Origin: a virus
Taxonomy: Duplodnaviria > Heunggongvirae > Uroviricota > Caudoviricetes
DNA: 46,624 bases
IMG/VR virus record: IMGVR_UViG_3300029858_000359
Direction: 5' to 3' (one strand)
Shown: in pieces, positions 1,270-40,229 of the stretch
Layout of the letters: each line of letters opens with the position of its first letter
Position numbering within the stretch: position 1 is the first letter of the stretch
Notes under the pieces: generated by a model
Database searches by the model: none
What the model was told of the DNA's origin: nothing
What the model saw: only the letters and a program-made list of their open reading frames with translations
Position numbers and translations under genes: made by a program

Positions 1270-2301
1270 ATGGAAGCTACTGTGGATTCGATTGATTTTC
1301 TGATCCGTAGTGAAGATGATTTTCTAAACTTTCTGGAAGAAATGAAAGCCCGAGAGGGGCTTGATTCTAAAGAGTTTATTTTCCCTAACGTAAAGTTTGC
1401 AGGCTGGCCATCCTTAGACATAAATGTTAAAGGAGAGCGGTATCATTCATCAATTACATCAGCAATGTTGTTTGGTATGTCAATGCTCAACGAGGAGATA
1501 CAGCGGGCGTTTGCAACCATACGATACGGATCGCAGAATCTTCAACGCTTGACTAATGAAGACAAGCAACGACTTGATATAAATTTTAAAATTAGCGAAG
1601 GTTCTAGTGATGCGGAAGGCACCACTGACAAGATCATCAACGCAGTAACTGATTTTTTGCGAGATACTATGTCTGGACTGAACGGCTGGCAGAAAATGCT
1701 TGTTATAATCACAATGGTTGGCGCGGCCAGCACATGTGGTTATCACTACATTTCAGAAAATGCCGTAACAGAAAGACATGCAACTGATCGGCAGGTTGAA
1801 ATTGCGAAAACCACATCCGATGGCATAAACAAAGCCATAGAAGCAACATTAGATTATAAAATCTATGGGAAATCAGCGATTAGCGATAAAGTTACTAGTC
1901 ACGGACAAGCAGGTAAAAGTGCTTTAGTGAAGCAATTAGCTGCTGATCCTACTGTCGAAACCGTGACTTTAGGAAATGAGAAACTAACACGACAAGACCT
2001 AAATACCTACAACAGCCGACAATCTGTAGATAGAGAACGTAAAGAACGAACTGATATATTTTCCATCAAAGGTGTAACCAGAACAGGGCCAACAAATCAG
2101 GATATTAATATTAACGTTGTTAGGGTCTCTAATGACGAATGCTTCACAATCAAAGCTTCAGCTGATGTTATCACCCAAGATGAGTTGACAGCTATTGTTG
2201 ACGCTTTGTCAAACAACTCTCATATTAAAATCAGTTACTTAGAGGTAATTGAAAAGGGTGCTGTTTCTATAGGTCAGTTCAACACTATTGTTTCAGAATA
2301 A
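1270..2301 (+). CDS. Hypothetical protein, 343 aa, one central hydrophobic helix (prophage-end cargo)
   Basis: Long ORF in AT-rich DNA with upstream TAAGGA ribosome-binding site; hydrophobic stretch WQKMLVIITMVGAASTCGYHYI; no family recognised. Confidence 0.6.
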   Translation: MEATVDSIDFLIRSEDDFLNFLEEMKAREGLDSKEFIFPNVKFAGWPSLDINVKGERYHSSITSAMLFGMSMLNEEIQRAFATIRYGSQNLQRLTNEDKQRLDINFKISEGSSDAEGTTDKIINAVTDFLRDTMSGLNGWQKMLVIITMVGAASTCGYHYISENAVTERHATDRQVEIAKTTSDGINKAIEATLDYKIYGKSAISDKVTSHGQAGKSALVKQLAADPTVETVTLGNEKLTRQDLNTYNSRQSVDRERKERTDIFSIKGVTRTGPTNQDININVVRVSNDECFTIKASADVITQDELTAIVDALSNNSHIKISYLEVIEKGAVSIGQFNTIVSE

Positions 2302-2352
2302 TCACTTAACCCCATTTATGTAGGTTGAGGTTATAAGTCACGGAGACCAGAT

Positions 2353-2697
2353 ATGTCCTTAAAGTATGCACATGAAAAATTTCATACTGCAGTACTTACT
2401 CTTGCGGGCCATGGAAGTATTCAAGAACGCTTGATTAATTCGTATGTTTTTAGCCTTGGGCATCTTAAAACAGCCGATGATATTCCAAATGCCTTACAAA
2501 GCAGGTTCGATGAATTATGTAAGGAACTGACTAAGTTTGATGCCACTGGCGATGAGGGGCGAGTTCAAGCAACAGTATCAAAACTTAACGATTTCGAGAT
2601 CAATAAACTGATCGAAGATATTGTCAGTCTTAACGATGATATTTGCATGAAATTGGCTCTGACGGATGAGACTTACCAAGACATACACCAAAGTTAA
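2353..2697 (+). CDS. Hypothetical protein, 114 aa
   Basis: ORF with GGAG ribosome-binding site 8 nt upstream; follows 1270-2301 after a 51-nt gap and ends at a terminator. Confidence 0.55.
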   Translation: MSLKYAHEKFHTAVLTLAGHGSIQERLINSYVFSLGHLKTADDIPNALQSRFDELCKELTKFDATGDEGRVQATVSKLNDFEINKLIEDIVSLNDDICMKLALTDETYQDIHQS

Positions 2698-2724
2698 TTG
2701 ATTAAATTCAAAAAGTTAACGTTC

Positions 2725-2750
2725 AACCAGCCAGTTTTTGGCTGGTTTAT
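2725..2750. terminator. Bidirectional rho-independent terminator between convergent genes
   Basis: AACCAGCCAGTTTTTGGCTGGTT hairpin with flanking T and A runs. Confidence 0.6.
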
Positions 2751-2781
2751 TGTCTTATAATATTCTTGCTCGAATGATGCA

Positions 2782-2994
2782 CTATTTATGATGTAATCCG
2801 GACATCAGTTCATGGACAAGATTATCTCTTTCATTGTGTTGCAACCGTAAATGCATAGCAAAAAGGTGAGCACTATCCTCATTCCTCTTCAAGCCATGCT
2901 GTTCAAGATACCCGAAAAAACGGCTTCTCTTATCCGCTATTTCCTGAGTCTGACGTGCAACATTTACCAAATTTTCTAGCGTTTTTCTTGGCAT
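2782..2994 (-). CDS. Hypothetical small protein, 70 aa
   Basis: ORF preceded by a strong AGGAGG ribosome-binding site (reverse complement of 2998-3003); no family recognised. Confidence 0.55.
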   Translation of the reverse strand: MPRKTLENLVNVARQTQEIADKRSRFFGYLEQHGLKRNEDSAHLFAMHLRLQHNERDNLVHELMSGLHHK

Positions 2995-3773: not shown

Positions 3774-4307
3774 ATGATGCCATTTGCTCGTTATTTCTGC
3801 ATTTTCATAAACCTTGGTTTGGGAGAAGGCTCAGCATTACCCGGTGGTGTGCCTGTTCCGTGGCCTTCAGCCACTCCGCCAACAGGCTGGCTGAAATGCA
3901 ACGGAGCAGCTTTTTCTGCTGAAGAATACCCGGAACTGGCAAAGGCTTATCCGACAAATAAATTACCTGATTTACGCGGTGAGTTTATTCGTGGCTGGGA
4001 TGACGGACGTGGAGTGGATAACGGAAGGGGATTATTAACGCTTCAGGACGGTGCGATTGTCAGTCATAACCACTATTGGGGAATCTGGACTTCACGAACT
4101 AACGACCAGACTCTGGGAAGTTTTACAGGCACCACGATTTTAAAACAAATCACGCCCCTGTCTCCGGCCATTGACTTCGATAATTACCCAATTCCCAACC
4201 CGGCTATTACAGAGGGTGGTGTTGTTGCGGCAACGACTAAACCTGCAGGTGCGAATGAAACACGCCCACGAAATGTCGCTTTTAACTATATTGTGAGGGC
4301 TGCATAA
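3774..4307 (+). CDS. Alternative tail-fibre C-terminal variable segment, currently not joined to the constant N-terminus (functional part begins at the crossover site near 3813)
   Basis: Contains the conserved tail-fibre motif PWPSATPPTGWLKCNGAAFSAEEYPELAKAYP; reading frame passes through the crossover site (encodes NLGLGE). Confidence 0.75.
   Translation: MMPFARYFCIFINLGLGEGSALPGGVPVPWPSATPPTGWLKCNGAAFSAEEYPELAKAYPTNKLPDLRGEFIRGWDDGRGVDNGRGLLTLQDGAIVSHNHYWGIWTSRTNDQTLGSFTGTTILKQITPLSPAIDFDNYPIPNPAITEGGVVAATTKPAGANETRPRNVAFNYIVRAA
3802..3827. repeat. Invertase crossover site, left end of invertible segment
   Basis: TTTTCATAAACCTTGGTTTGGGAGAA; inverted partner at 5660-5685 shares a 19-bp core AAACCTTGGTTTGGGAGAA; resembles gix/hix sites. 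Confidence 0.8.
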
Positions 4308-4909
4308 TGAATAACGCAGAATTAAACAGTGAATTAATTGCCACTATGGCAGGAGAAATTACTGTTTATAACTTTGACGTCATGAGTCGGGAGTATATTT
4401 CAGCTTCAACTGAATATCTTGCTGTTGGTGTCGGCATTCCGGCATATTCCTGTTTAGATGCTCCAGGCACCTACAAAGCTGGTTATGCAATCTGCCGCTC
4501 TGCAGATTTTAACTCATGGGAATATGTACCAGACCATCGCGGTGAAATCGTCTATAACACCGAAACGGGAGACGCCAAAGAAATCACAACTCCGGGTGAT
4601 TACCCCGAAAAAACAACCACTATCGCCCCGTTAACGCCATACGATAAATGGGATGGTGAGAAATGGGTGACGGATACTGAGACACAGCATAGCGCCGCAG
4701 TAGACGCGGCAGAAGCACAACGTCAGTCACTGATTGATACTGCAATGGCTTCCATTAGTCTGATTCAACTGAAATTGCAGGCCGGGCGGAAGCTGATGCA
4801 GGCAGAGACCACCCGACTTAACACTGTGCTGGATTACATTGACGCGGTGACGGCAACAGATACCAGTACCGCGCCGGATGTCATCTGGCCTGAACTGCCG
4901 GAGGAGTAG
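4307..4909 (+). CDS. Tail fibre assembly protein (partner of the alternative fibre segment)
   Basis: 200-aa ORF directly after the fibre segment; C-terminus LDYIDAVTATDTSTAPDVIWPELPE typical of Tfa proteins. Confidence 0.8.
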   Translation: MNNAELNSELIATMAGEITVYNFDVMSREYISASTEYLAVGVGIPAYSCLDAPGTYKAGYAICRSADFNSWEYVPDHRGEIVYNTETGDAKEITTPGDYPEKTTTIAPLTPYDKWDGEKWVTDTETQHSAAVDAAEAQRQSLIDTAMASISLIQLKLQAGRKLMQAETTRLNTVLDYIDAVTATDTSTAPDVIWPELPEE

Positions 4910-5312
4910 GCCATTCAATATCTGGCGCACTGGAAGTATCGACCAGTTCCAGTGCGTCCAGATAATCCAGCCACAAATTATATTGCGCCAGTTCCTCACC
5001 TTTCAGACGACCAATCGCCGCTTTACCAGGCCATTGTTTACTGTTCATGTATTCGTTGGCCTGATTAACTAATCGCTGTTTATTTGATTCAGCGATTGAG
5101 ATTAATTCTTCGCTGGTAAGTGGTGGCGCATCCTGCCATGCTGGAAAACCATTTTTATCTGAACCAAGTATTTTACCATCAGGCCATGCAACTCCTGCGA
5201 ACTCAGAATAAATAGTAAAGTTTATTTTCGTAGCGTTCTCAGGAATGGTTTGGCTATCTGGTGAAATATAAAATCCCGAATCAGAGGGATTAAAATAATA
5301 TGTCTTTTCCAT
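4881..5312 (-). CDS. Tail fibre assembly protein (partner of the currently expressed fibre)
   Basis: 143-aa ORF; C-terminus LWLDYLDALELVDTSSAPDIEWPTPP, Tfa-like. Confidence 0.8.
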   Translation of the reverse strand: MEKTYYFNPSDSGFYISPDSQTIPENATKINFTIYSEFAGVAWPDGKILGSDKNGFPAWQDAPPLTSEELISIAESNKQRLVNQANEYMNSKQWPGKAAIGRLKGEELAQYNLWLDYLDALELVDTSSAPDIEWPTPPAVQAR

Positions 5313-5314
5313 AG

Positions 5315-5962
5315 TTAATACCCCACAGCCATCCAGTAAATTGAATTTGTTGTAGCAGAAGTGTAAGTAAATCTGATTTTAGTTCTGTTGGTACTTCCAA
5401 TATCAAAGCCCACAGAACGGGCAGAAGGATCATTAGTTGAAATAAGAGCGTTTACCGAACGACAAGCAGCAGGGAAAGCTACAGGTAATGTTATATCAAC
5501 TGTTCCAACACTTCCTCCGGTTGGTGAGACAGAAAAACTCCCCCATTGAATAATCATCCCCCCAGGTAATTTCTGGTATCCATTGGCGGTCAATGAGTTA
5601 CCAAAGCTGTTCATATCCGGTACCTGATTTTCTCCTGTCCCCACATTCCTCTTTGCCGCTTCTCCCAAACCAAGGTTTTCGAGAGCTGTTTTCACCGTGC
5701 CATCCGATTTGATATCGCCAAACGGATTCTTGCGGCTTAACAGCAGCGCACGAAGCGCGGTAAGCAGCTGGTCATGCCGCCCCTTCTCCAGGCTGGCACC
5801 GGATGCCTCCACAACGCTGCAAAGCTCCTCCTGCAACATGTCAAAGTAGTCATCATCCAGATCGGTGGCAGGCGTGCCGGTCTGGGGGTTACCACGGGTA
5901 AAACCGTTCTTACCCGCGCCGAACTTATCCTTCTGCGCGGTTTTCGTGTCTATACGATGCAT
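5315..5962 (-). CDS. Tail fibre protein: constant N-terminus (about 5686-5962) fused to the currently oriented variable C-terminus
   Basis: 215-aa ORF crossing the right crossover site, which encodes ALENLGLGE. Confidence 0.75.
5660..5685. repeat. Invertase crossover site, right end of invertible segment
   Basis: TTCTCCCAAACCAAGGTTTTCGAGAG, inverted repeat of the site at 3802-3827. Confidence 0.8.
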
Positions 5963-8559: not shown

Positions 8560-9638
8560 CAGAACGGGTCCTCCTGTACTCTGGCTTTTTTCTTTTTCCG
8601 CGCGCCGGGGGCTTCGGGTTCAGGCAGATAAGCATCAGGTGGGCCGACACGGATTTCCGTCAGGGTGCCATTCTGGTCCTGAGTAAACGTGACTTCCGAG
8701 ACAAGCAGTTCGGTATTGTCGAAACCACAGACCGGATCGAAGACAATCACCCGCTGGTTGGGCTGCCACAGCGTACCGTTACCCTGTCGCCAGCCCTGCA
8801 CCACATAGGTGGTTTCATCCGTCCGCGCCGCCCGTTGTCGGGCTTCAAAGTCAGCACGCGCAATACAGCCTGCCCCCGTAGCCTGCCCTGTCTGCCTGAT
8901 ATACATCGGACGATAACGGGCAATAAATGCATCCTCTGTGCGGGCCCGCAGCGCGGTGGTGGTGGCCTCACCGAAATCATCGTCGTTTCCGGCACGCTGC
9001 CCCGCCACCTGGTAAACTGAAAACCGCTCCCGGATACTCTTCTCCGTATCACAGGAAAGGATGTTTTCCCCAAGTACCAGCGCGGTATGTGCCCGCGTTG
9101 AGCCAATACCACCAATCACCAGCCTGCCGTGCGGGTCGTCATAAGCCAGCGCCTGCTGCTGACCGAGTATTTTGTTGATCACCTCGATCACCGTTTCACC
9201 GTGATCAGGCTGGACATCCGGAATAACACCCGACGGCGCATTGCTGTTCACCACCTCAATGCCGAAAGGCGCAGCAAGCGCCTGCGCAATCTGTACCAGC
9301 GATCGTCCGTTAAACTGTGTCGGTTCGGCTGCACAGTCAATCAGGTCAGCAGTCAGACTACGTCCGGCAATACCGGTGCTGACCGAACGGGCATCGTAAC
9401 GAACGGGGGTCGCCTCCACCCAGCCGGTGATCACCAGCTCATCACCAATCAGCACTTCCACTTTTGAACCATTTTTAATGCGCGGCTGAAGCGTGGTGAT
9501 ACCCTCATCACCCGGCCACTGGCGGGTGATCTCCACGCTGAAATCCCGCGCCAGCCGTTCAATACCGGCACCGATGCGCACCGATGTCCAGCCATTCCAC
9601 TCCCGGCCATTTACCCGTAGCGTGACATTGTCGTTCAT
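8559..9638 (-). CDS. Tail or baseplate hub protein, Mu P (gp44)-like
   Basis: 359-aa ORF following the DNA circulation protein gene. Confidence 0.55.
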   Translation of the reverse strand: MNDNVTLRVNGREWNGWTSVRIGAGIERLARDFSVEITRQWPGDEGITTLQPRIKNGSKVEVLIGDELVITGWVEATPVRYDARSVSTGIAGRSLTADLIDCAAEPTQFNGRSLVQIAQALAAPFGIEVVNSNAPSGVIPDVQPDHGETVIEVINKILGQQQALAYDDPHGRLVIGGIGSTRAHTALVLGENILSCDTEKSIRERFSVYQVAGQRAGNDDDFGEATTTALRARTEDAFIARYRPMYIRQTGQATGAGCIARADFEARQRAARTDETTYVVQGWRQGNGTLWQPNQRVIVFDPVCGFDNTELLVSEVTFTQDQNGTLTEIRVGPPDAYLPEPEAPGARKKKKARVQEDPF

Positions 9639-10963
9639 TGCACTGGCACCTTCAGAGGGATCACCGGCACAAAGCCGGGATGCGTAATGGCATTACGCCG
9701 GATAATGTCCGCGTCACGCGCCGCGTTATCAAACCAGGTCGCCGCCAGCACCAGCGCGGGTAAAACCTCATCCGGTGTGCGCTGAATGATCCGTGCAGAC
9801 TGTTCAAGGCGCGTGTTGATATCCGCATTCAGATCTGCTTTCACCCGGCGCAGCGCCAGAAACAGCGCATCGCTGGTTGTACGGGACAACTCCTTATCAA
9901 TTGCCGTATTCAGTGTGTCGCGAATGTCAGTCAGTTCTTCCCACGTCGGCAGGTCAACCGTGTTTTTCACCGCCGGTGCATTGTTCAGTGCCGGATGCGT
10001 GACGGAAGGCCAGCCAGTGCTCTGCGCGGGTGTTGTTGCCTGCCCCACTGCGGAATTCTGCATCACCGCGGAAGTTGTTGGCGCAGGCAATCGGGTGACG
10101 GCATACGCCGCTTCGCTGATTGCGGTCGTACGAAGGGTGCTGGCAACCACGTTACGCTGCTGCGTCGCCGTGGCGGTGGTTTTACTGTCCGTTTTCCAGA
10201 CGCCGCGCGGTTGCAGATCGCTGCCGAGGCTGACACCGGAAAGCGTTTTGATCATGGTGACCAGGTCGCTGGCGTTACCATAAAGGCGTTTCCCGGTACG
10301 CCACATTTTCTGCACCTGCTCAACGAAATTTTTGCCTGACGATGGCGGCGGCAGAAGTACCGAGATATCCCCCTGCAACAGCCTGGCGGCATCCGATACG
10401 GCAGAATCCACCACTTTCATCGCATCAGAAACATACCCCAGCATTATGCTGGCATTACCGATAACGTCGTTCTGCACGAAATCCGCCACACCATCGATAC
10501 TGAAACCGCTGAAGCTGTCACTGATGCAGTCATCCAGTGCAGAACAGGATGACATCAGCGTCTGCGCCGTCGCCGCACCTGATGTGGGGTAAGAGAGTTC
10601 TCCTGCTTCGACAAACTTCAGGTCAAAGCGGACAATACGCCCTTCACTTTTCGATGTGCTGACCCGAACTTCCCCGTCAACACAGACTTTCAGCTCACCG
10701 TATGTCGGATGGACAAGCGTGCCGGGACCGGGTTTATTCAGCGCGTCAATCAGGCGATCGCGCTGGTCAAAGCAGTCATCTCCCACCACATAAGCCGTGA
10801 TGGACGGGCGGAAAGTGACTTTTCCCAGATCTTCGGTATAGGGTTTGTCGCGGTTCGGGTATTCGTGCGTTTCCACACGGCGACCTGTTCCCGCACTTTC
10901 TTCTTCGACCTTAAACGGCACGCCGCGAAATGACGCGTCCTGAAGCCTGTCTTTCCACGTCAT
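9635..10963 (-). CDS. DNA circulation protein, Mu N (gp43)-like
   Basis: N-terminus MTWKDRLQDASFRGVPFKVEEESAGTGRRVETHEYPNRDKPYTEDLG typical of the DNA-circulation N-terminal family. Confidence 0.7.
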   Translation of the reverse strand: MTWKDRLQDASFRGVPFKVEEESAGTGRRVETHEYPNRDKPYTEDLGKVTFRPSITAYVVGDDCFDQRDRLIDALNKPGPGTLVHPTYGELKVCVDGEVRVSTSKSEGRIVRFDLKFVEAGELSYPTSGAATAQTLMSSCSALDDCISDSFSGFSIDGVADFVQNDVIGNASIMLGYVSDAMKVVDSAVSDAARLLQGDISVLLPPPSSGKNFVEQVQKMWRTGKRLYGNASDLVTMIKTLSGVSLGSDLQPRGVWKTDSKTTATATQQRNVVASTLRTTAISEAAYAVTRLPAPTTSAVMQNSAVGQATTPAQSTGWPSVTHPALNNAPAVKNTVDLPTWEELTDIRDTLNTAIDKELSRTTSDALFLALRRVKADLNADINTRLEQSARIIQRTPDEVLPALVLAATWFDNAARDADIIRRNAITHPGFVPVIPLKVPVQ

Positions 10964-10980
10964 ATATACTCCGAAAATTA

Positions 10981-11008
10981 AAAAGCCACCTATTAGAAGG
11001 TGGCCTTG
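10981..11008 (-). terminator. Rho-independent terminator of the tail-embedded moron
   Basis: On the minus strand GCCACC-TTCTAATA-GGTGGC hairpin followed by TTTTTAATTTT. Confidence 0.6.
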
Positions 11009-11024
11009 TAATGAATTTTATTAA

Positions 11025-11555
11025 TTAGCGAGTCAGAAACAACGAATCTTTATACTTTTGCTGTTGTTCATTTAAATACTTAGCTGTTTCATCGCTGGCA
11101 AATGGAAATATTACCGTATTTTTAGGCATGGTAATTTCTTTTTTGTCCAGCGTCAGAGTAAACATAGGAACATACTGAGCAGAGTAACGCACCGCAGAAA
11201 CGAGCTCTAGTTTAGACTCTTCAATAACACTTAAATTATCCAGGCTAACTTTCTCTTCATCTTTTTTCTTTGACGCATTTAAAGTTTTTATTACTTTATT
11301 TAATTTCTCCTGAAAATCCTCCTTAAAGTTTTCAGGATTGCCGTCGACAACAAGAATCTGTTCACCCTGATTATCTGGAAAAATAATCTTTGCACTTATC
11401 AATTTATTTTCTTTATAAACATCACCAAGTTTTATGGCTCCTCCAGATAACTGAATAATATGTTCATCTTTAAAGGAGATGTTGCCAGAGATTATGAGAG
11501 ATGAAAAAATAGCCGCTGCTCCAAGAATTACACTTGCTGTGATATAGCCTTTCAT
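11025..11555 (-). CDS. Moron: hypothetical exported or membrane-anchored protein, 176 aa
   Basis: AT-rich insert between tape-measure and DNA-circulation genes, with its own promoter and terminator; N-terminal signal or anchor MKGYITASVILGAAAIFSSLIISG. Confidence 0.65.
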   Translation of the reverse strand: MKGYITASVILGAAAIFSSLIISGNISFKDEHIIQLSGGAIKLGDVYKENKLISAKIIFPDNQGEQILVVDGNPENFKEDFQEKLNKVIKTLNASKKKDEEKVSLDNLSVIEESKLELVSAVRYSAQYVPMFTLTLDKKEITMPKNTVIFPFASDETAKYLNEQQQKYKDSLFLTR

Positions 11556-11590
11556 TTTTCGCCTATTAACATTTTTCTAAATGTGCATTA

Positions 11591-11618
11591 ATTCTATCAC
11601 TCTATTTATGACTTACAA
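11591..11618 (-). promoter_or_regulatory. Putative sigma70 promoter of the moron
   Basis: On the minus strand TTGTAA, 16-nt spacer, TAGAAT. Confidence 0.45.
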
Positions 11619-11646
11619 CCAGCAATACCTGTGAGGGGAATCCTGG

Positions 11647-13479
11647 CTACCAAAATCGGGTATAGCCAACATCGTGATTTATATCAATGCCACTGGAGCG
11701 TGTTTCCGTAACCCGCATATCTGGTGGCATATTTATAAATGATACCTTGATCTCACCATCAACTTTTGGCGCGGTAGCTTTATTAATCATGAAGGGATTC
11801 GAGCCTGTGGCATCGGAGGCGTTGTTTGACTGAGCCGGATCTACCGCCTGATAAGGTGTGTATCCCCGCGCCAGTATTCCCGTCCCATAAGCATCATAAG
11901 CACCCGCGCCCCACTGCGCAGAGTTAATGGCATCGACCGTGTCACCGGAACTGTCGGTAAACCACTCAATAATTGGCTTCAGCTTGTCCCACATATCCTG
12001 AAACCACTTAACAACCGGTCCCCAGTTATTGATTACCATCCCCAGCGGCGACCAGGCAAAAACCTTCTTCAGAAGTTCCCAGCCAGCCTCAAAATAAGGA
12101 CCAATGGTTTCCCAGAGCTTCTTGAAATAAGGTCGGACAACATCCCAGTTAGTGATAATTAATCCCGCAGCCAGGGCTATCGCCGTCGCAATCATTCCAA
12201 TCGGCGTCATCGACATGATCCTGCTGACAATACTGATGGCACCGCCAACGCCCATCAATCCCAGTTTCAGAATCGCAAGACCGGCAGCAAGCCCGACGAC
12301 GCTGCGAATAACCCGGGGATTTTCATCCGCAAACTTCGTGAATTTTTCCCCTAACTCCCCCAGCCATTGCGTGATATTTTTGGCGTCACCAGAAAATGCG
12401 CCACCAATAGCCGCAAGGCCGTTAGTTGCGGTCCCCGTCATTGCCTCCCACAGGTTGGACAGCGTACCAAGCTGGGCCTGAACACGTTTATTCAGGCTGG
12501 CCTGTTTATTCATCTTCTGCTGGATCTGATCGTAGCCATCCTTTCCTTTATCGATTAGTGCATTGACCACCTGAAGGGTTTCGGCATCATCACCAAATAT
12601 TGCCTTAAGTACACCTGTTCGCTTAACGTCGGTCAGTTTTCGCAGCTTTGCCAGTTGCCTGAACATGTTATCAAGACCGCCAAAACTTCCTTTGCCGTCA
12701 GTAAAATCGAGCTGTACCCCGAGTTTCTGGCGGGCCATGACTTTATTGACGTCCCTGATTTTCTTAACGCTTAATCCGGACTGGATAACTTTTCGCAGGG
12801 CATTACCTGCCGACTCCCCGTTCATCCCCATCTGATCCATCATGACGCTGATAGGGGCAAGGCTCTGTGCAGCCTGAAGTCCGTCCTTATTCACCATCTT
12901 CAGAACAGAACTGGTTTTAGTGAAGAAGGACAACATGTTGGTATCGTCAACGCCCAGATAAAACGCCTTCTGGATAGTGTCGAACAGCCCCATCATGTCT
13001 TCTGACGCCGTTCCGGTAGCATCCTGCATCTTTGCAGCAAACTCAGCAGCCGCTTCCGGTGTTTTTTTCAGTTGTACCGCAAGATAAGCTGTCGCTTTAC
13101 CCACACCACCAAGAATGTTTTCTGCCGGGATCCCCTGACGCACCAGCATCTGCATCATGTTCTGGAAATCAGCCGTTGTACCGGGTAGCTGGTTACCCAG
13201 GCCAATAGCCAGTTTATTGATGTCCTGAAAGCTCTTTCCAACCTCGCCGTTCGCATCCATCATGGCGACTTTCAGCCCGGTGGCGGCGTTTTCCTGATCG
13301 GCATAAGATTTCAGGGAAAGCGTCAGACCCGCTGCCAGTCCGCCACCAAGCGCCAGCCCACCCTGTGACGCTTCTTCCGCCTGGCGTTTAAATCCCCGGA
13401 TTTTCTTTTGCATTTTCGACAGCGCGGGAGAAAGCCTGTCGACACCGGTGATCAACGCCTTAAGCTCAAATTCCGCCAT
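11647..13479 (-). CDS. Tail tape measure protein
   Basis: 610-aa ORF, Ala/Gly/Leu-rich with hydrophobic C-terminal region, downstream of the frameshifted chaperone pair. Confidence 0.8.
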   Translation of the reverse strand: MAEFELKALITGVDRLSPALSKMQKKIRGFKRQAEEASQGGLALGGGLAAGLTLSLKSYADQENAATGLKVAMMDANGEVGKSFQDINKLAIGLGNQLPGTTADFQNMMQMLVRQGIPAENILGGVGKATAYLAVQLKKTPEAAAEFAAKMQDATGTASEDMMGLFDTIQKAFYLGVDDTNMLSFFTKTSSVLKMVNKDGLQAAQSLAPISVMMDQMGMNGESAGNALRKVIQSGLSVKKIRDVNKVMARQKLGVQLDFTDGKGSFGGLDNMFRQLAKLRKLTDVKRTGVLKAIFGDDAETLQVVNALIDKGKDGYDQIQQKMNKQASLNKRVQAQLGTLSNLWEAMTGTATNGLAAIGGAFSGDAKNITQWLGELGEKFTKFADENPRVIRSVVGLAAGLAILKLGLMGVGGAISIVSRIMSMTPIGMIATAIALAAGLIITNWDVVRPYFKKLWETIGPYFEAGWELLKKVFAWSPLGMVINNWGPVVKWFQDMWDKLKPIIEWFTDSSGDTVDAINSAQWGAGAYDAYGTGILARGYTPYQAVDPAQSNNASDATGSNPFMINKATAPKVDGEIKVSFINMPPDMRVTETRSSGIDINHDVGYTRFW

Positions 13480-27045: not shown

Positions 27046-27798
27046 TTATCTCGTCACCTTTCTCAATTGTGTTTCAGCATATGCTTCTTCCTGCCAGCAC
27101 TTTGTTACTAGTTTATCAATTACGTCTGCATATCCTTTGTACCACTGATAATCAGTCAGGTCTGGAACCAGCTTCTGGACATGACGTCGTGCCAGTGTAG
27201 TTGGTAAACGGCTAAACCGGTTTCCATTGCAACGCCCACAAATCTTATAAACAGGCGTGCCATGAAGCCGGGTCCTTTTTTCATCCAGGACAATACCTTT
27301 ACCCTTACACCCTCTGCACGCTGTGCTGACTTCTCCCTTACCATGACAATGCTGACATAGTTCCTTCACCCACTCTTCCTTGATAACAGATTCCCCGCTT
27401 CTGGAGTGTTTCACCACCTCGCGCAATACATTATGAAATCCAGTACCAGCACAATGCTCACAGCGAGCCTTACTTGCCGCAGACCTGGAATAATCAGCAA
27501 AGGCAAAATTCACAAGGTAAGGAATGATCTGTAGCCGGGTTTCTTCACTCAATTTATTCAATGTCGGGTTATCCAGTGCCATCGCGTAATTGAGCAGACC
27601 TTCAATCGCAAACTGAGGATCCTGAACACCAACTTTTGCCAGGAATAAGGCAAACCCAAGCGGTGCTTTCGACTGCACCATCCCCTGCGCAGCCATCACA
27701 TCCGTAATCGTTAAACCACCTGAGCCTGTCGCCGGTGCGTCATCGCTCAATTTTGGAGATTTTGGGGAGTAATATTTTGGTAAGGCTTCAAGGTTCAT
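27046..27798 (-). CDS. Putative antitermination protein Q with zinc-finger repeats
   Basis: Four CxxC(x)G motifs (CEHCAGTG, CQHCHGKG, CRGCKGKG, CGRCNG); position immediately upstream of PR'/tR' and the lysis cassette; start at the Met with GGAG ribosome-binding site. Confidence 0.6.
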   Translation of the reverse strand: MNLEALPKYYSPKSPKLSDDAPATGSGGLTITDVMAAQGMVQSKAPLGFALFLAKVGVQDPQFAIEGLLNYAMALDNPTLNKLSEETRLQIIPYLVNFAFADYSRSAASKARCEHCAGTGFHNVLREVVKHSRSGESVIKEEWVKELCQHCHGKGEVSTACRGCKGKGIVLDEKRTRLHGTPVYKICGRCNGNRFSRLPTTLARRHVQKLVPDLTDYQWYKGYADVIDKLVTKCWQEEAYAETQLRKVTR

Positions 27799-27811
27799 GC
27801 TCGTTCTCCAC

Positions 27812-28807
27812 TTACGCCAGTACGCCAATTGCCAGCGCACGATCGATAAAACGAAATATCAGCTCCAGTTGGGAGCCATACTTCTCTTCAAATGCCACGG
27901 TATCCGCATGCAGTTCGTCGTGATGCTTTCTGCACAAAGGCAACACAAAGAGGTCATGCGCTTTTGTACCCATTCCCCCCTGACCGTGGCCTATCAGGTG
28001 GTGGGGATCATCAGCAGGCTTTCCACAACATGCACACGGCTGTGTCTTAACCCAGCGCGTGTACTTTTCATTAACCCAGCGGCGACGTTTGGGGCGTAAC
28101 ATAAAAGACTCCGGCGACTCCGGCTCCACTTTCAGCGCCAGCACCTTTTTCGCCTTATCCTGGATGATGCTGGTGGCAGGAACCGAAGGCACAAGGTCAC
28201 TTTCCCGGGTGACAGACGGCGCAACAGGCTTCGGTAATCTCAGTGCCTTACGGGCTGCACTTTCCGGTAAAGCATCCGCCAGGTCATTACGAATCAGCCA
28301 CCAGCACAGTTCCGGCATTGTCACAACGTGACTGTCATCAAAACCGAGATCCCGACGCACAACAGACAACACCCAGCGGGCACAGTTATCCGTTGCCATT
28401 GATTCCAGCCGTTCCGTGAACTGATCGCGCAGCTGGTTATCGCAGTGCCAGCACAGACGGATTGCGCCCGGAGCGTGTCGCATTGTGGTCATGTTCTCGC
28501 TGTGCCAGTCGGAATGAGGCCACTGGCAGCCTTTTTCACGAAGTAACCAGCTTTCAAGACATTCCACTCCACCAGCACGACGAATCACTGCCTCATTGCG
28601 GAACACGGCCCGAACGGCAGGATCATCCGCCAGCGGTTGTGATGCCGCCGGAACGGCACCACTGGCGAAAGATGAATAACGTTCCGGCTCAGGCTCCAGC
28701 AGGACACGCCCCTGCATAAACAAGGGCATCAGCTCTGAACCTGGTCTGAACAATACGATCCCCATACGCGGGGCAATTTCAGGGGTCAGTAGTGCTCTCA
28801 CGGTCAC
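27812..28807 (-). CDS. DUF968-like phage protein
   Basis: C-terminal motif CACCGKPADDPHHLIGHGQGGMGTKAHDLFVLPLCRKHHDELH. Confidence 0.55.
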   Translation of the reverse strand: MTVRALLTPEIAPRMGIVLFRPGSELMPLFMQGRVLLEPEPERYSSFASGAVPAASQPLADDPAVRAVFRNEAVIRRAGGVECLESWLLREKGCQWPHSDWHSENMTTMRHAPGAIRLCWHCDNQLRDQFTERLESMATDNCARWVLSVVRRDLGFDDSHVVTMPELCWWLIRNDLADALPESAARKALRLPKPVAPSVTRESDLVPSVPATSIIQDKAKKVLALKVEPESPESFMLRPKRRRWVNEKYTRWVKTQPCACCGKPADDPHHLIGHGQGGMGTKAHDLFVLPLCRKHHDELHADTVAFEEKYGSQLELIFRFIDRALAIGVLA

Positions 28808-37012: not shown

Positions 37013-37231
37013 GTGGAGAAACATATGCTGAACCTCGATTGTGTTCCTATCTCAACTTATTGCAAAGAAACTGGCGAAACTCCTGAAGCAATAAACAAAC
37101 GTGTACAGCGCGGTGTTTGGCGTGAAGGTGTTCAGGTTTTAAAGGTTGAAGGCGTTAAGGAGAGGTGGATTGATCTTAGTGAGGTTGCAAAATGGGCCAG
37201 ACAAAACTGCTCAAACTACCGCGCGGCGTAA
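37013..37231 (+). CDS. Excisionase (Xis-like)
   Basis: 72-aa basic protein with GGAG ribosome-binding site, overlapping the start of the integrase gene. Confidence 0.65.
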   Translation: MEKHMLNLDCVPISTYCKETGETPEAINKRVQRGVWREGVQVLKVEGVKERWIDLSEVAKWARQNCSNYRAA

Positions 37232-38358
37232 CAATCAGGAAACACCGCCAGGGCGAAACGATCAATATAACTTTCACCTACAAAGGCGTTAAATGTCGTG
37301 AGCCTCTTTCCAATCTGGAAGTAACACCAAAGAACATTAAATACGCCGAGCGCACACTCGGCGAAATTCATAATAAGATCGAAAGGGGAACATTCATTTA
37401 TGCGGAATATTTTCCCCGTTCTGCTCGTTTGAAAATTTTTGGTAATGCTGCTGCAGGCAAAACGGTAAAAATGTACCTGGACGAATACCTTGAAATCTGC
37501 GAAACGAGAAAACTTTCACCATCTACGATTGGTGGTTATAAAAAATGCCGTAGTGCGTTAGCCTCACTCCACATTTGCCCTGCAAGTGAATTAACACCAG
37601 CAATCCTGAAAGCGTGGATTCAAAGCCAGAAAACGACCTTAAAAACAATTCGCAACCAGTTATCTTTCCTGCGGTCAGCACTTGATGAAGCCGTAACCGA
37701 TGGGGTACTTCAAATTAACCCCGTATCGTTGGTAACTGCTTCGCGCTACCAAAGTGATAAGTCAGAAGCAGAAAGCAGCTATGTGGTTGATCCGCTATCA
37801 CCAGCAGAAGTTGATGCATTACTAGCAGCAGCCGGAAACAAACAATGGGAAAATCTGTTCCGGTTCGCCATACATACAGGCCTGCGTAGTTCTGAATTAT
37901 GTGCCCTACGATGGCATGATATCGACTTTGTTGGAAAAACAGCCCATGTTCAGAGCGCAAGTGTTGTCGGAGTTATCAAAGGAACAAAGACAAAAGCCGG
38001 TACCCGTAAAGTTGAACTGACTGAAGAAGCAATGTTGGCGTTGATAAACCAGAAGCCATTTACATTCATGAAGGATGCTACTGTCTTTGAAGATCCAAAG
38101 ACCAATAAACCCTGGGCAAGTGCTGATGCAATTAGGAAAAAAGCATGGGTGCCAACATTGCGAAAAGCAGGTATTCGTTACAGAAACCCATATCAAACCA
38201 GGCATACATTCGCCACCAGACATATCAGCCGGGGAGCAAACCTGTTTTGGCTTGCAGCTCAAATGGGGCATAAAGGGCCTGAGATGCTTTTCAGGCACTA
38301 TGGCTCATATCTGAAGGAATATGATGGACAAACAAGCTTGAAGAAGATAACAATATAA
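37192..38358 (+). CDS. Tyrosine integrase of the prophage
   Basis: 388 aa; C-terminal catalytic region RHTFATRHISRGANLFWLAAQMGHKGPEMLFRHYGSY. Confidence 0.9.
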   Translation: MGQTKLLKLPRGVTIRKHRQGETINITFTYKGVKCREPLSNLEVTPKNIKYAERTLGEIHNKIERGTFIYAEYFPRSARLKIFGNAAAGKTVKMYLDEYLEICETRKLSPSTIGGYKKCRSALASLHICPASELTPAILKAWIQSQKTTLKTIRNQLSFLRSALDEAVTDGVLQINPVSLVTASRYQSDKSEAESSYVVDPLSPAEVDALLAAAGNKQWENLFRFAIHTGLRSSELCALRWHDIDFVGKTAHVQSASVVGVIKGTKTKAGTRKVELTEEAMLALINQKPFTFMKDATVFEDPKTNKPWASADAIRKKAWVPTLRKAGIRYRNPYQTRHTFATRHISRGANLFWLAAQMGHKGPEMLFRHYGSYLKEYDGQTSLKKITI

Positions 38359-38375
38359 TCCAAGCATGAAACTAT

Positions 38376-38400
38376 TGGCCACAATTTGTGGCCATTTTAC
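38376..38400 (+). terminator. Perfect 19-bp palindrome followed by T-run between int and the OLD-like gene (terminator or operator)
   Basis: TGGCCACAATTTGTGGCCA followed by TTTTAC. Confidence 0.45.
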
Positions 38401-38416
38401 GGAGCAAGATAGAAAC

Positions 38417-40150
38417 ATGGCAAATCAAATTACCAAACTAAAAAATATAAATGTTGTGAAGTTTCGCGGACTGAAAAATATAAACATCGAGTTTGGTTCT
38501 CGCCTAACTGTTATTTGTGGTAAAAATGGCACATCTAAATCCACAATTCTTGGCATTATCGCCCAAATATTTAGCTTTACAAAGGACTTTACCAAAAACC
38601 CTGAGACTGATTTAACACAATATAAAACATTAACAAATGGCAGCTTCAAGTCAGCTTTCAGCGAACATTTTAGGCTTTCAGAACAATTTGATGTTCCTGG
38701 TTCAATGGACGTCAAAATTAGTGTCTATGATGGTGCATCGAACAAACATCTTGAAAAACTAACATTAGGTTTATACAGCTACAGTGACAGAGATAAATCA
38801 AGGCCTGTAGTCAGGGGAAATGATTCAATACCGGAAAAAAACCAAAGTAGAAACGTTACTCATCCTGTTATTTTTTTAAGCTTAGCACGACTTCTTCCTA
38901 TTACATTAAGGACTGATTACTCAACACGGGATGTTCAGTACATCAATGAAAATTCTGATGAAATCAGAATGATGAGTAACCAACTCTTACTAAAAAACAA
39001 TGGAAGCTCAGTAACAGCAACAAAAGGTACTATCGATTCAATGGTTGTCCATGGTGACAATTATGATCACCAATCAGTATCTGTTGGTGAAGATAATGTT
39101 GGACAATTAATCCAAGCAATTTTTTCATTTAAAAGATTGAAGGAAACTTATTCTGATTATCATGGCGGAATATTGTTAATTGATGAAGCCGATGCAGGTC
39201 TTTTCCCTGCTGCACAGTTAGAGCTAATTAATATTCTAACTAAAGCAGCAAAACAATACGATCTGCAAATAATCATGACCTCGCACTCTCCATTAATAAT
39301 AGAGGATATCTATAATCGTTCAAAACAAGATAGTGATAGCTTTAAAACAATATATCTTACAGACACATATGGAGATATTAAAACAAAGAATAATCTTTCA
39401 TGGACAGATATCCACGCTGATTTACATGTTGAAACTGTAAAAATTAATGATGACATTTGTCTTCCAAAGGCAAATGTATATTTTGAAGACAAAGAAGGTT
39501 TCGACTTTTTCAAACAATTGATAACAGATCGAAAAATAAATAAAATATTAAATCCATTAGGGAATATAAATATTAGCTGCTCTGCCATGCTTGACTTAAT
39601 GGCAAGAAAAATACCAGAATTTACAGCTAAAAGCTTGATCGTCTTAGACGGTGATGTTGTTCACGACAATAGTGCTAATGCAAAAAAAGCCAAAAAAGAA
39701 AAAAACTTATGTTTGCTTCCAAGCACCTTACCTCCAGACCAAATGATTTTTGAGTTTTTATATAATTTACCACCTGATGATGCATATTGGGAAAATAAAA
39801 ATAAATTTACAAAAGCTGTTTTTATGAAAACAGCTAAAGACATAATTGCAACGCTAAAGATTGGTAACGCTCCGATTGATTTAAAAATCCTTATAGATAA
39901 TTATAAAAAAGTTAACAAAAACCATGGCGGGATAGTTAGAAAACTGTTTAAAGATTTTGCACATACGACTCAATTTCAGGCCCAAGTAAAAGGGCGAGTT
40001 AAAGATAACCCATATCGATATTGGGTCGAGAAAAATCCTGTGCAATCGGATAGCTTCAAGAATGAACTAATAAAGAGTCTTAAAGTTATTATGACAAGTG
40101 GACATGGTGTCGATTCTGCTACCATCTCATCATATCTGTCAGATAACTAA
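38417..40150 (+). CDS. OLD-family nuclease-like protein: N-terminal ABC/AAA-type ATPase plus C-terminal TOPRIM-like domain
   Basis: Walker A GKNGTSKST, Walker B ILLIDEADAG, TSHSP signature, C-terminal FEDKEG and LIVLDGDVVHD (Glu and DxD TOPRIM-like); start at MANQITK (ORF track start 38366 lacks a ribosome-binding site). Confidence 0.7.
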   Translation: MANQITKLKNINVVKFRGLKNINIEFGSRLTVICGKNGTSKSTILGIIAQIFSFTKDFTKNPETDLTQYKTLTNGSFKSAFSEHFRLSEQFDVPGSMDVKISVYDGASNKHLEKLTLGLYSYSDRDKSRPVVRGNDSIPEKNQSRNVTHPVIFLSLARLLPITLRTDYSTRDVQYINENSDEIRMMSNQLLLKNNGSSVTATKGTIDSMVVHGDNYDHQSVSVGEDNVGQLIQAIFSFKRLKETYSDYHGGILLIDEADAGLFPAAQLELINILTKAAKQYDLQIIMTSHSPLIIEDIYNRSKQDSDSFKTIYLTDTYGDIKTKNNLSWTDIHADLHVETVKINDDICLPKANVYFEDKEGFDFFKQLITDRKINKILNPLGNINISCSAMLDLMARKIPEFTAKSLIVLDGDVVHDNSANAKKAKKEKNLCLLPSTLPPDQMIFEFLYNLPPDDAYWENKNKFTKAVFMKTAKDIIATLKIGNAPIDLKILIDNYKKVNKNHGGIVRKLFKDFAHTTQFQAQVKGRVKDNPYRYWVEKNPVQSDSFKNELIKSLKVIMTSGHGVDSATISSYLSDN

Positions 40151-40157
40151 TTGATTA

Positions 40158-40196
40158 AAAAGGGCTTTATGTGATGGCCACAAAGCCCTTTTTTTG
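40158..40196 (+). terminator. Rho-independent terminator after the OLD-like gene
   Basis: AAAGGGCTTT-loop-AAAGCCCTTT followed by TTTTTT. Confidence 0.65.
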
Positions 40197-40229
40197 ATAT
40201 ACTTTAGATCTGACATTTAGAGGTATCAT

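What the first reader, a model, noticed from the sequence alone, without database searches (positions are those of the whole stretch)
10981..11640. Self-contained moron (promoter, gene, terminator) inserted in the tail operon, encoding an exported or membrane-anchored protein
Seen in sequence: an AT-rich block between the tape-measure and DNA-circulation genes carries its own promoter-like element (TTGTAA, 16 nt, TAGAAT), a 176-aa ORF with an N-terminal signal or anchor, and a hairpin plus T-run terminator. Established knowledge: morons inside tail operons often encode envelope proteins expressed from the prophage, such as superinfection exclusion or serum-resistance factors. Inference: candidate periplasmic exclusion or fitness factor.
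Basis: partly seen in the sequence, partly recalled or inferred. Interest (0 to 1): 0.5.

Follow-up and report, generated by a model that had tools for sequence, protein, structure and literature searches.

The report
Membrane-anchored cargo gene in tail operon
An AT-rich add-on gene between two tail genes of an E. coli prophage encodes a protein predicted to be anchored in the inner membrane and to face the periplasm; it is a fairly ordinary phage 'moron' of unknown function, most likely shielding the lysogen from other phages, in a slot where related prophages carry other envelope-protein genes or nothing.

Summary
Window 10982-11646 is an AT-rich block (GC ~0.33 against ~0.55) between the tape-measure gene and the Mu gp43-like DNA-circulation gene. 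On the minus strand it carries a sigma-70-like promoter, a 176-aa ORF and a strong hairpin plus T-run.

It is cargo, not a tail part. SfV, SfII, SfI and SfIV lack it. In E. coli the same junction is empty or holds unrelated genes, four of five kinds with export or anchor signals. Nucleotide diversity falls about eight-fold exactly at the cassette edges. A Lelliottia genome keeps only this gene and its hairpin after the prophage decayed.

The protein belongs to a small unnamed family (phrog_5485; no Pfam, NCBIfam, PADLOC or PDB match). Its conserved N-terminal helix is predicted to act as an N-in/C-out anchor, followed by a ~150-aa alpha/beta domain under purifying selection. Homologues down to 33% identity occupy the same slot.

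Two corrections: the promoter is no better than chance statistically, and a hairpin is present at every junction variant, including empty ones.

Function is inferred: superinfection exclusion at the inner membrane or periplasm, like HK97 gp15 (~0.4). This is a new member of a known kind and of moderate interest.

The parts
10982..11646 (-). Whole cargo cassette: the AT-rich block from just after the tape-measure stop codon to the hairpin before the DNA-circulation RBS
   Evidence: GC 0.32-0.36 against 0.51-0.62 in the flanks. Homology to SfV/SfII/SfI ends at these edges. The nucleotide-diversity valley has the same edges. There are no terminal repeats or target-site duplication.
11591..11618 (-). 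Sigma-70-like promoter candidate: -35 TTGTAA (11618-11613), 16-nt spacer, extended -10 TGaTAGAAT (-10 at 11596-11591)
   Evidence: 9 of 12 matches with TG, but the count equals the shuffle expectation. A -35-like TTGTAA/TTGCAA/TTGTCA is conserved in position in the Leclercia and Lelliottia homologues. It is not conserved in more distant ones. Its function is inferred.
11562..11564 (-). Weak Shine-Dalgarno (AGG), 6 nt before the ATG
   Evidence: Read directly from the sequence.
11025..11555 (-). 176-aa ORF; RefSeq WP_000679479.1 'hypothetical protein'; member of phrog_5485
   Evidence: ORF. (phrog_5485, E 3.8e-108, 1-176 of 176). (RefSeq accession). (pN 0.12 against pS 0.74 between the Leclercia and Lelliottia copies). 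(intact in 53 of 54 distinct E. coli sequences).
11484..11546 (-). Residues 4-24: predicted transmembrane signal-anchor helix (N-in, C-out)
   Evidence: Hydropathy is 2.1-2.6 in close homologues. Across 66 family members the mean is 2.19, the N-flank charge is +0.98 and the C-flank charge -0.68, and conservation equals that of the best parts of the soluble domain. In the N-terminally extended homologues P0090 and P0096 the segment is internal. There is no lipobox.
11028..11483 (-). Residues 25-176: predicted periplasmic alpha/beta domain (beta-hairpin, helix, beta-hairpin, helix) with motifs G39xVxLGxVYxE49, N93 and Y124xSExxPxFxL134
   Evidence: The AF2 model has mean pLDDT 64.7, with the core at 57-90. 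No informative fold or sequence match was found.
10972..11007 (-). Intrinsic-terminator-like hairpin (11007-10982) plus T-run (10981-10972)
   Evidence: -17 kcal/mol, z -6.3. An equivalent hairpin with a different stem sequence is present in the homologues and in every other junction variant, including the empty one.
11647..13479 (-). Upstream flank: tail tape-measure protein gene (backbone)
   Evidence: PF10145, E 9.8e-27; tape-measure PHROGs.
9635..10963 (-). Downstream flank: Mu gp43-like DNA-circulation / baseplate-hub gene (backbone)
   Evidence: PF07157, E 2.9e-34; phrog_184.
27046..27840 (-). Q-type antiterminator of the same prophage. It is inferred to let late transcription read through the cassette's hairpin during lytic growth.
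   Evidence: PF03589 Antiterm, E 5e-54. The role at this hairpin is an inference from the established behaviour of lambdoid Q proteins.

Best explanation
This is a moron: a horizontally exchanged cargo cassette in a variable slot between the tape-measure and DNA-circulation genes of an SfV-like temperate myophage with a Mu-like tail, integrated at ssrA.

Shown:
- The cassette is compositionally foreign and absent from close relatives.
- It has a much more recent common ancestor than its flanks.
- It encodes a real protein under purifying selection.
- The protein has one conserved N-terminal hydrophobic helix and a ~150-aa alpha/beta domain.

Predicted: the helix is an uncleaved N-in/C-out anchor, so the domain sits in the periplasm, tethered to the inner membrane.

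Inferred mechanism:
- In the lysogen, the repressor keeps Q and the late operon off. The cassette's own sigma-70 promoter makes a ~600-nt mRNA that stops at the hairpin.
- In lytic growth, Q-modified polymerase reads through the hairpin into the baseplate genes.
- The tethered periplasmic protein most likely blocks superinfection after adsorption. It would interfere at the inner membrane or periplasm with the tape-measure or tail-tip proteins that conduct DNA into the cell. This is the logic established for HK97 gp15 and P22 SieA.

My confidence is about 0.85 that it is a moron encoding an envelope protein, and about 0.4 that its function is exclusion.
For: Cargo status:
- GC contrast with the flanks.
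- SfV, SfII, SfI and SfIV match the flanks only.
- 1,094 of 5,426 E. coli genomes match part of the TMP-DNA_circ junction, but only 179 have the cassette.
- In a spread sample, 49 rows had both flanks. Of these, 26 were empty, 10 had this cassette, and 13 had other cargo.
- pi is 0.15-0.36% inside the cassette against 2-3.7% outside, across 54 distinct sequences (six-genome check).

Real gene under selection:
- pN 0.12 against pS 0.74.
- The ORF is intact in 53 of 54 sequences.
- 78 relatives, nearly all ~170-200 aa and matching over most or all of their length.

Envelope targeting.

Not a lytic-cycle part: the Lelliottia copy survives as an orphan beside icd, with only ~60 nt of the tape-measure 3' end, its upstream region and its hairpin.

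Link to this tail module: homologues at 53%, 41%, 38% and 33% identity all sit in the same slot.

Slot content: four of the five cargo kinds checked carry export or anchor signals, and one of them is antisense to the operon, so it needs its own promoter.

Read-through: a Q antiterminator, a CI-like repressor and an integrase are present in the window.

Precedents: HK97 gp15 (PMC3594210) and P22 SieA (PMC10883804).
Against: - There is no experimental or homology evidence for any function. Pfam, NCBIfam, PADLOC, PDB sequence search and fold searches all gave nothing informative.
- The promoter match is at chance level. It is not conserved in distant slot-resident homologues, one of which has only ~26 nt upstream. 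Some members may therefore be expressed only with the late operon.
- AT-rich foreign DNA in E. coli is often silenced by H-NS (established knowledge), so expression in the lysogen is not assured.
- The most distant relatives (~20% identity) are in non-phage contexts. The ancestral role of the family therefore need not concern phages.
- Topology was not checked with a dedicated predictor.
Confidence: 0.4

Rival explanations
1. It is a lysogenic-conversion factor unrelated to phage defence. The periplasm-facing, membrane-tethered protein would improve host fitness through envelope stress tolerance, colonisation or resistance to host factors, as lambda Bor and Lom do.
For: Envelope location. Retention as an orphan chromosomal gene under purifying selection in Lelliottia. 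Distant family members sit in ordinary chromosomal contexts next to TetR, dehydrogenase or HTH genes. Carriers come from many hosts and environments. Moron-encoded fitness factors are documented (PMC3594210).
Against: The family stays in the same slot beside the tape-measure gene over 33-100% identity in at least four genera. A function tied to this tail type explains that more easily. There is no similarity to any known virulence or stress family.
Confidence: 0.25
2. It is an accessory protein of the phage's own lytic cycle, expressed mainly by read-through with the late operon. It might condition the envelope for assembly or release, or stop progeny from injecting into already infected or lysing cells.
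For: It has the same orientation as the tail operon and lies inside it. One distant homologue has almost no upstream intergenic space. A Q antiterminator would carry late transcription across it. Slot linkage is conserved.
Against: It is dispensable. SfV, SfII, SfI and SfIV are isolated phages without it, and about half of the sampled E. coli junctions are empty. The orphan copy in Lelliottia is maintained with no phage around it. In strain 24AR0142 the gene is intact although IS3 elements have replaced the early region.
Confidence: 0.15
3. It is a membrane-tethered sensor or effector of an abortive-infection type defence, rather than a passive block to DNA entry. On sensing an incoming tail or DNA it would compromise the membrane.
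For: It is a single-pass membrane protein whose TM helix is unusually conserved, which suggests specific contacts within the membrane. Membrane-embedded defences acting at injection sites are known, for example SNIPE, which associates with tape-measure proteins (PMC13190303).
Against: There is no enzymatic or pore-forming domain and no partner gene in the cassette. There is no PADLOC match. The soluble domain is predicted to lie on the periplasmic side, away from phage DNA once it is in the cytoplasm.
Confidence: 0.1
4. The N-terminal segment is a cleaved Sec signal peptide, and the mature protein is soluble in the periplasm rather than membrane-anchored.
For: Small residues occur at possible -3/-1 positions (AAA|I after residue 15, IIS|G after 23). 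UniRef names one homologue 'Secreted protein'.
Against: The uncharged hydrophobic stretch is about 21 residues, which is long for a signal-peptide core. It is as conserved as the folded domain across 66 sequences. In P0090 and P0096 it is internal, preceded by 50-120 residues.
Confidence: 0.15

Closest known systems
HK97 gp15 moron (superinfection exclusion; Cumby et al. 2012, reviewed in PMC3594210)
   Same: Both are compositionally distinct cassettes inside a tail operon directly adjacent to the tape-measure gene, absent from relatives, and encoding a protein with an N-terminal membrane segment. For both, related proteins also exist outside prophages.
   Different: No sequence relationship was detected; no Pfam family matches at all. 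gp15 sits upstream of the tape-measure gene in a siphophage and is described as a small YebO-like protein. Here the gene is downstream, in a contractile-tail phage, and carries a ~150-aa folded periplasmic domain. Exclusion is demonstrated for gp15 and only inferred here.
P22 SieA (PMC10883804)
   Same: A prophage-expressed inner-membrane protein of similar size (162-164 aa) that blocks DNA delivery by relatives of its own phage. Its sequence types are highly diverged yet functionally equivalent.
   Different: SieA is predicted to have three transmembrane segments and no signal sequence (PMC10883804). This protein has one. There is no homology, and the genomic location and phage type differ.
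Outer-membrane lipoprotein exclusion and conversion proteins: Cor (phi80, N15, HK022), T5 Llp, lambda Bor
   Same: They are envelope-targeted products of cargo genes in or near tail-gene regions of temperate coliphages. One alternative cargo in this same slot is a predicted lipoprotein (L014, lipobox LLGGC).
   Different: This protein has no cysteine and hence no lipobox. It cannot be a lipoprotein, and it is predicted to stay in the inner membrane.
Tab (JBD26) and Tai systems: morons in late operons that target tail assembly (PMC10884400, PMC11364771)
   Same: They are prophage cargo genes within or next to late operons whose specificity is tied to the tape-measure or tail proteins of other phages.
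   Different: Tab is encoded between the terminase genes and blocks tail assembly of the invading phage. Tai genes lie mostly upstream of the packaging module. Neither paper mentions a transmembrane segment. This protein is predicted to be membrane-anchored with its domain in the periplasm, so it could not reach assembling tails.
phrog_5485 / RefSeq WP_000679479.1 (uncharacterised)
   Same: Direct membership: a full-length HMM match, E 3.8e-108, and the identical RefSeq protein in many E. coli genomes.
   Different: None in sequence. The family has no assigned function, no Pfam model and no paper that I could find.

Membership tests
Moron (Juhala/Hendrix definition, as summarised in PMC3594210) | Extra DNA between two genes that are adjacent in related phages | tested here: met
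   SfV, SfII and SfI align to both flanks at 93-95% and skip the insert. The SfII spacer is ~60 nt. 26 of 49 sampled E. coli junctions are empty.
Moron (Juhala/Hendrix definition, as summarised in PMC3594210) | Base composition different from the surrounding genes | tested here: met
   GC 0.34 (GC3 0.30) against 0.51-0.58 for the neighbours. The same contrast holds in Leclercia (0.35 against 0.51-0.60).
Moron (Juhala/Hendrix definition, as summarised in PMC3594210) | Own promoter | tested here: inconclusive
   A TTGTAA-16-TGnTAGAAT site is present, but the count equals the shuffle expectation. Only the -35-like hexamer is conserved in position, and only in close genera. Indirect support comes from the orphan copy being maintained behind the icd terminator, and from antisense cargo in the same slot.
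Moron (Juhala/Hendrix definition, as summarised in PMC3594210) | Own terminator | tested here: met
   The hairpin folds at -17 kcal/mol, z -6.3. Caveat: every junction variant, including the empty SfII site, has a hairpin at this position.
Moron (Juhala/Hendrix definition, as summarised in PMC3594210) | Expressed from the repressed prophage | not testable with these tools
   This needs lysogen RNA-seq, 5' RACE or a reporter fusion.
phrog_5485 | Significant full-length match to the family HMM | tested here: met
   E 3.8e-108, residues 1-176 on profile positions 1-176 of 176.
HK97 gp15 / YebO-type exclusion proteins | Sequence membership in the YebO-like family | tested here: not met
   No Pfam family matched at E <= 1. 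gp15 itself was not available for a direct comparison.
HK97 gp15 / YebO-type exclusion proteins | Blocks genome entry of superinfecting phage without masking the receptor | not testable with these tools
   This needs plating, adsorption and DNA-entry assays.
Lipoprotein exclusion and conversion factors (Cor, Llp, Bor) | Lipobox with an invariant cysteine after the signal sequence | tested here: not met
   The protein has no cysteine. A lipobox-like motif occurs in 1 of 66 family members.
P22 SieA type | Polytopic inner-membrane protein with three predicted TM segments (PMC10883804) | tested here: not met
   There is one hydrophobic peak only; the next-best 19-mer scores 0.9.
Known anti-phage defence systems (PADLOC-DB 2.0) | Match to any defence-protein HMM | tested here: not met
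   0 families at E <= 1.
Structural or assembly component of the Mu-like tail | Conserved presence in functional phages sharing the tail module | tested here: not met
   It is absent from SfV, SfII, SfI and SfIV, and there was no tblastn hit in 50,697 phage records. It occurs alone in Lelliottia.
Type II (N-in/C-out) signal-anchored membrane proteins | A single ~20-residue hydrophobic helix with a positive N-flank, not removed by signal peptidase | tested here: inconclusive
   Hydropathy, flank charges (+0.98 against -0.68), conservation and the internal position in N-extended homologues all fit. No dedicated predictor or experiment was available.

The most novel reading that the evidence does not exclude
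The junction between the tape-measure and gp43-like genes of SfV-like and Mu-like tails may be a dedicated exchange slot that circulates a repertoire of mostly envelope-targeted anti-phage proteins among prophages, by recombination in the conserved flanking genes. Under this reading, this family is a previously unrecognised class of single-pass inner-membrane exclusion proteins. It would recognise the injection machinery of contractile-tail phages through its conserved TM helix and periplasmic domain, and it would be useful enough to the host to be kept after the prophage is lost.
Probability: 0.2. Interest if true: 0.65.

Novelty: new member of a known kind. Interest (0 to 1): 0.4.

Why it matters
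Morons in tail operons that encode membrane proteins are an established category, so the finding does not overturn anything. It does deliver a concrete, well-bounded candidate:

- The family is uncharacterised and present in about 3% of complete E. coli genomes.
- It is tied to one slot of a common prophage tail module.
- It shows population-genetic signs of recent spread, and in one genus it has been retained as a host gene.

Injection-stage exclusion is well documented for siphophages (HK97 gp15) and podophages (P22 SieA); I found no equivalent described for this type of contractile-tail temperate phage. A positive phenotype would add a new protein class and a handle on how such phages cross the periplasm and inner membrane. 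The slot itself has at least six allelic states, most of them envelope proteins. It is a compact natural library for screening prophage-encoded envelope defences.

Tried and rejected
- Homology to known families: Pfam, NCBIfam and PADLOC gave nothing for the protein or for any of 66 family members.
- BFVD gave one significant but uninformative hit, a predicted 'lipoprotein' of Pseudomonas phage ventosus (E 1e-5, TM 0.44/0.52). The afdb50 library was unavailable.
- Sequenced phages: tblastn found no copy in 50,697 records.
- One genome per species: only one extra locus, in Edwardsiella.
- The pattern scan with the deep alignment failed for lack of conserved stretches.
- Is the SKA5 cargo a hidden homologue? 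No (BLASTP E 2.9, hhalign probability 0.3%).
- Transposon-like insertion: rejected, with no terminal inverted repeats or target duplication.
- RNA element: only sub-threshold Rfam hits on the hairpin (23-25 bits against a gathering score of 55).
- Literature: no paper mentions WP_000679479. The SfV-family genome papers do not describe this slot, and neither did two further searches.
- A mistake I corrected: I first assumed the whole window equals E. coli 24AR0142, whose prophage has lost its early region to IS3. A direct comparison showed the window matches it only over 1029-25747 and is otherwise a complete prophage at ssrA.
Full report
**1. What is in the sequence**

The features all lie on the minus strand. 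Between the stop codon of a 610-aa tape-measure protein gene (11647..13479; PF10145, E 9.8e-27) and the start of a 442-aa Mu gp43-like DNA-circulation / baseplate-hub gene (9635..10963; PF07157, E 2.9e-34; phrog_184) lies a 665-bp block. Its GC content is 0.32-0.36, against 0.51-0.62 on both sides.

The block holds one ORF, 11025..11555, of 176 aa. The ORF has GC 0.343 and GC3 0.299.

Upstream is TTGTAA, a 16-nt spacer, then TGaTAGAAT (11618->11591). A weak AGG Shine-Dalgarno sits 6 nt before the ATG. Downstream is a 10-pair hairpin (11007->10982) followed by TTTTTAATTTT.

The hairpin is far better than chance: -17 kcal/mol, z = -6.3, with 0 of 200 shuffles folding as well. The promoter match is not: 3 sites were found in the region against 3.0 +/- 1.6 expected.

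Rfam gives only sub-threshold leader-like hits on the hairpin. There are no terminal repeats or target-site duplications.

**2. The surrounding element**

The window is a prophage integrated at ssrA. smpB lies at 1-483 and the tmRNA gene at 698-1060. The backbone is that of the Shigella serotype-converting phages SfV, SfII and SfI, with an HK97-like head and a Mu-like contractile tail.

The window also contains:
- a Q-type antiterminator (27046..27840),
- CII,
- a CI-like S24 repressor,
- an integrase (37192..38358).

The prophage therefore looks complete. I initially mistook the window for the copy in E. coli 24AR0142, which has lost its early region to IS3. A direct comparison corrected this.

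**3. It is cargo, not a tail component**

Sequenced phages:
- SfV, SfII and SfI match both flanks at 93-95% identity and skip the insert.
- In SfII the two genes are ~60 nt apart, with only an annotated terminator between them.
- In SfIV the annotated tape-measure and DNA-circulation genes are 24 nt apart.
- tblastn finds the protein in none of 50,697 phage records.

E. coli genomes:
- 1,094 of 5,426 complete genomes match part of the junction.
- Only 179 contain the cassette.

A sample spread across the ranking gave 49 junctions with both flanks:

| State of the slot | Rows | Span (bp) |
|---|---|---|
| Empty | 26 | 881 |
| This cassette | 10 | 1501 |
| Membrane-anchored OB-fold gene (PF12869), on the opposite strand | 6 | 1406-1407, one 1264 |
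| Same span as phage SKA5, which has an unrelated 170-aa protein with a signal peptide (these rows not checked individually) | 4 | 1502 |
| Bacterial PH-domain gene (PF08000) | 2 | 1314 |
| 225-aa predicted lipoprotein (lipobox LLGGC) | 1 | 1579 |

Supporting calls for the cargo types are 13, 17, 47-52 and 63. All cargo is AT-rich (GC 0.31-0.42), and four of the five cargo kinds have export or anchor signals. The SKA5 cargo is not a hidden homologue of this family.

**4. Population signature**

I compared 54 distinct 4.5-kb sequences from IMG/VR plus the window. Nucleotide diversity is 0.15-0.36% inside the cassette and 2-3.7% immediately outside. The drop coincides with the tape-measure stop codon and the DNA-circulation start. 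Six RefSeq genomes gave the same picture: 0.27% against 2.0-3.0%.

The same protein accession, WP_000679479.1, sits next to different tape-measure and DNA-circulation alleles. The cassette therefore has a much younger common ancestor than the backbone around it. That is what is expected if it was acquired once and spread by recombination in the conserved flanks. The ORF is intact in 53 of 54 sequences.

**5. The hairpin belongs to the slot**

Every junction variant ends the same way: a GC-rich hairpin with a different, internally compensating stem, then TTTTT.AT...CGGAG...ATG of the DNA-circulation gene. This holds for the empty SfII site, the SKA5 cargo, the PH cargo, the lipoprotein cargo and the Leclercia homologue.

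So a terminator-like hairpin before the baseplate genes is a constant of this junction. The prophage encodes a Q antiterminator, and Q-modified polymerase ignores intrinsic terminators (established knowledge). The hairpin should therefore not block late expression of the baseplate genes. This step is inferred.

**6. The protein**

It matches phrog_5485 (unknown function) end to end, E 3.8e-108. It has no Pfam, NCBIfam or PADLOC match.

The word-indexed search found only E. coli copies, ~53-58% identical homologues in Leclercia and Lelliottia, and unnamed metagenome sequences. An exhaustive profile search of 1.84 billion representatives found 78 relatives. Nearly all are 166-203 aa and match over most or all of their length. 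None of 66 members scanned hits a Pfam family consistently.

All have one N-terminal hydrophobic segment, with mean hydropathy 2.19. Several lines argue for an uncleaved N-in/C-out anchor rather than a signal peptide:
- The N-flank has net charge +0.98 and the C-flank -0.68 (N above C in 53 of 66).
- The segment is as conserved (0.43) as the best parts of the soluble domain (0.44), and more conserved than the linkers (0.29-0.31).
- It carries a recurring small-residue face (S8, G12, S23).
- In the extended homologues P0090 and P0096 it is internal, preceded by 50-120 residues.

There is no cysteine, so it is not a lipoprotein.

The AlphaFold model (pLDDT 64.7 overall, 57-90 in the core) shows a beta-hairpin, helix, beta-hairpin, helix domain for residues ~45-172. 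Conserved motifs are G39xVxLGxVYxE49, N93 and Y124xSExxPxFxL134. No informative structural neighbour was found.

**7. Evolutionary behaviour**

Homologues at 53% (Leclercia), 41% (Edwardsiella), 38% and 33% identity (the last from a metagenome) all sit between a tape-measure gene and a DNA_circ_N gene.

Between the window and Leclercia the neighbours are 37% (tape measure), 63% (DNA circulation) and 82% (gp44) identical, against 53% for this protein. Replacement changes are far rarer than silent ones: pN 0.12 against pS 0.74 for Leclercia versus Lelliottia.

In Lelliottia amnigena the gene stands alone between icd and a glutamine amidotransferase gene. It keeps the last ~60 nt of the tape-measure gene, its upstream region and its hairpin, with no other phage gene nearby. 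So it outlived its prophage and is still under selection. That argues for a benefit to the host, and for expression that does not depend on the late operon. icd upstream ends in a strong terminator.

The most distant relatives (~20% identity) lie in non-phage contexts.

**8. Most likely mechanism**

*Shown.* It is a foreign, exchangeable cassette encoding a conserved single-pass protein.

*Predicted.* The protein is inner-membrane anchored, with its domain in the periplasm.

*Inferred.*
- The cassette is transcribed from its own promoter in the lysogen and terminated at the hairpin.
- It is read through under Q during lytic growth.
- The product acts on incoming phages after adsorption, at the stage where the tape-measure and tail-tip proteins open the path across the periplasm and inner membrane.

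This is what HK97 gp15 does from a moron on the other side of the tape-measure gene (PMC3594210), and what P22 SieA does to P22-like ejection proteins (PMC10883804). The persistent linkage to one tail module and the conserved TM helix fit that picture, but neither proves it.

I put exclusion at about 0.4. The rivals are:
- an unrelated host-fitness role, about 0.25;
- a lytic-cycle accessory role, about 0.15;
- an abortive-infection type membrane sensor, about 0.1.

**9. Comparison with known systems, and novelty**

It meets the compositional, positional and terminator criteria of a moron. The promoter criterion is inconclusive and expression is untested.

It is not a member of the following groups:
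- the YebO/gp15 family (no Pfam hit);
- the lipoprotein group that includes Cor, Llp and Bor (no lipobox);
- the SieA type (one TM segment, not three);
- any PADLOC family.

Tab and Tai act on tail assembly of invading phages and are encoded elsewhere in the genome (PMC10884400, PMC11364771).

I found no paper on this protein or on this slot.

The verdict is a new member of a known kind. It is a well-supported moron with an uncharacterised envelope protein, in a slot that behaves as a small cargo hotspot. Interest is moderate: unsurprising to a phage biologist, but a clean and readily testable candidate.

Noticed in passing
Window 10964-11646; loci L001, L002, L011-L015: The junction between the tape-measure and DNA-circulation genes is a multi-allelic cargo slot in E. 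coli prophages. Besides this cassette it can be empty or hold a TM-anchored OB-fold gene (PF12869, antisense), a bPH_1 gene (PF08000), a predicted lipoprotein, or the SKA5-type signal-peptide protein. None of these has a PADLOC hit.
   Followed up: partly
L008 7860-8565 (Lelliottia amnigena, GCA_053585915.1): An orphan copy of the gene lies beside icd. It keeps only ~60 nt of the tape-measure 3' end, the upstream region, the hairpin and a degenerate trace of the DNA-circulation start. It appears to be a domesticated remnant of a decayed prophage, still under purifying selection.
   Followed up: partly
Window 10972-11007 and the equivalent positions in L001, L002, L004, L011, L014: A hairpin plus T-run precedes the DNA-circulation RBS in all junction variants. 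The stems differ in sequence but keep their pairing, which suggests a conserved attenuator or terminator ahead of the baseplate genes. No formal covariation count was made.
   Followed up: partly
Window 3809-5678: This tail-fibre and tail-fibre-assembly segment next to a pinE-like invertase is inverted relative to the otherwise 99.9% identical prophage in E. coli 24AR0142. It is an invertible host-range segment caught in the two orientations.
   Followed up: no
Window 38366-42629: Immediately after the prophage integrase lie an AAA_15/AAA_21 ATPase (PtuA/AriA/GajA-like PADLOC hits) and a D12 methyltransferase that matches PD-Lambda-5_B at E 5e-124. A second integrase follows (41358-42629). This looks like a PD-Lambda-5-like defence pair on a second integrative element in tandem at ssrA.
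   Followed up: partly
Window 1270-2994: Three ORFs (343, 114 and 70 aa) between the ssrA attachment site and the invertase have no Pfam or PADLOC match. They occupy the position where SfV-type phages carry O-antigen modification genes (the gtr position is from my own knowledge of SfV).
   Followed up: no
L010 17195-22129 (E. coli 24AR0142) and L026 (CP088862.1): In 24AR0142 the same prophage has lost its early region to IS3 elements, yet the 176-aa gene is intact. A 35.4-kb circular record filed as a plasmid (CP088862.1) consists largely of phage head, tail and lysis genes, with IS26 in the lysis region. It also carries the intact gene.
   Followed up: no
P0090, P0096, P0081 (family members from metagenomes): A few distant relatives carry extra regions: 50-120 residues on the cytoplasmic side before the TM helix, or an Ala-rich C-terminal tail. 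They sit in non-phage contexts next to TetR, dehydrogenase or protein-kinase genes, which hints at a cellular origin of the family.
   Followed up: no
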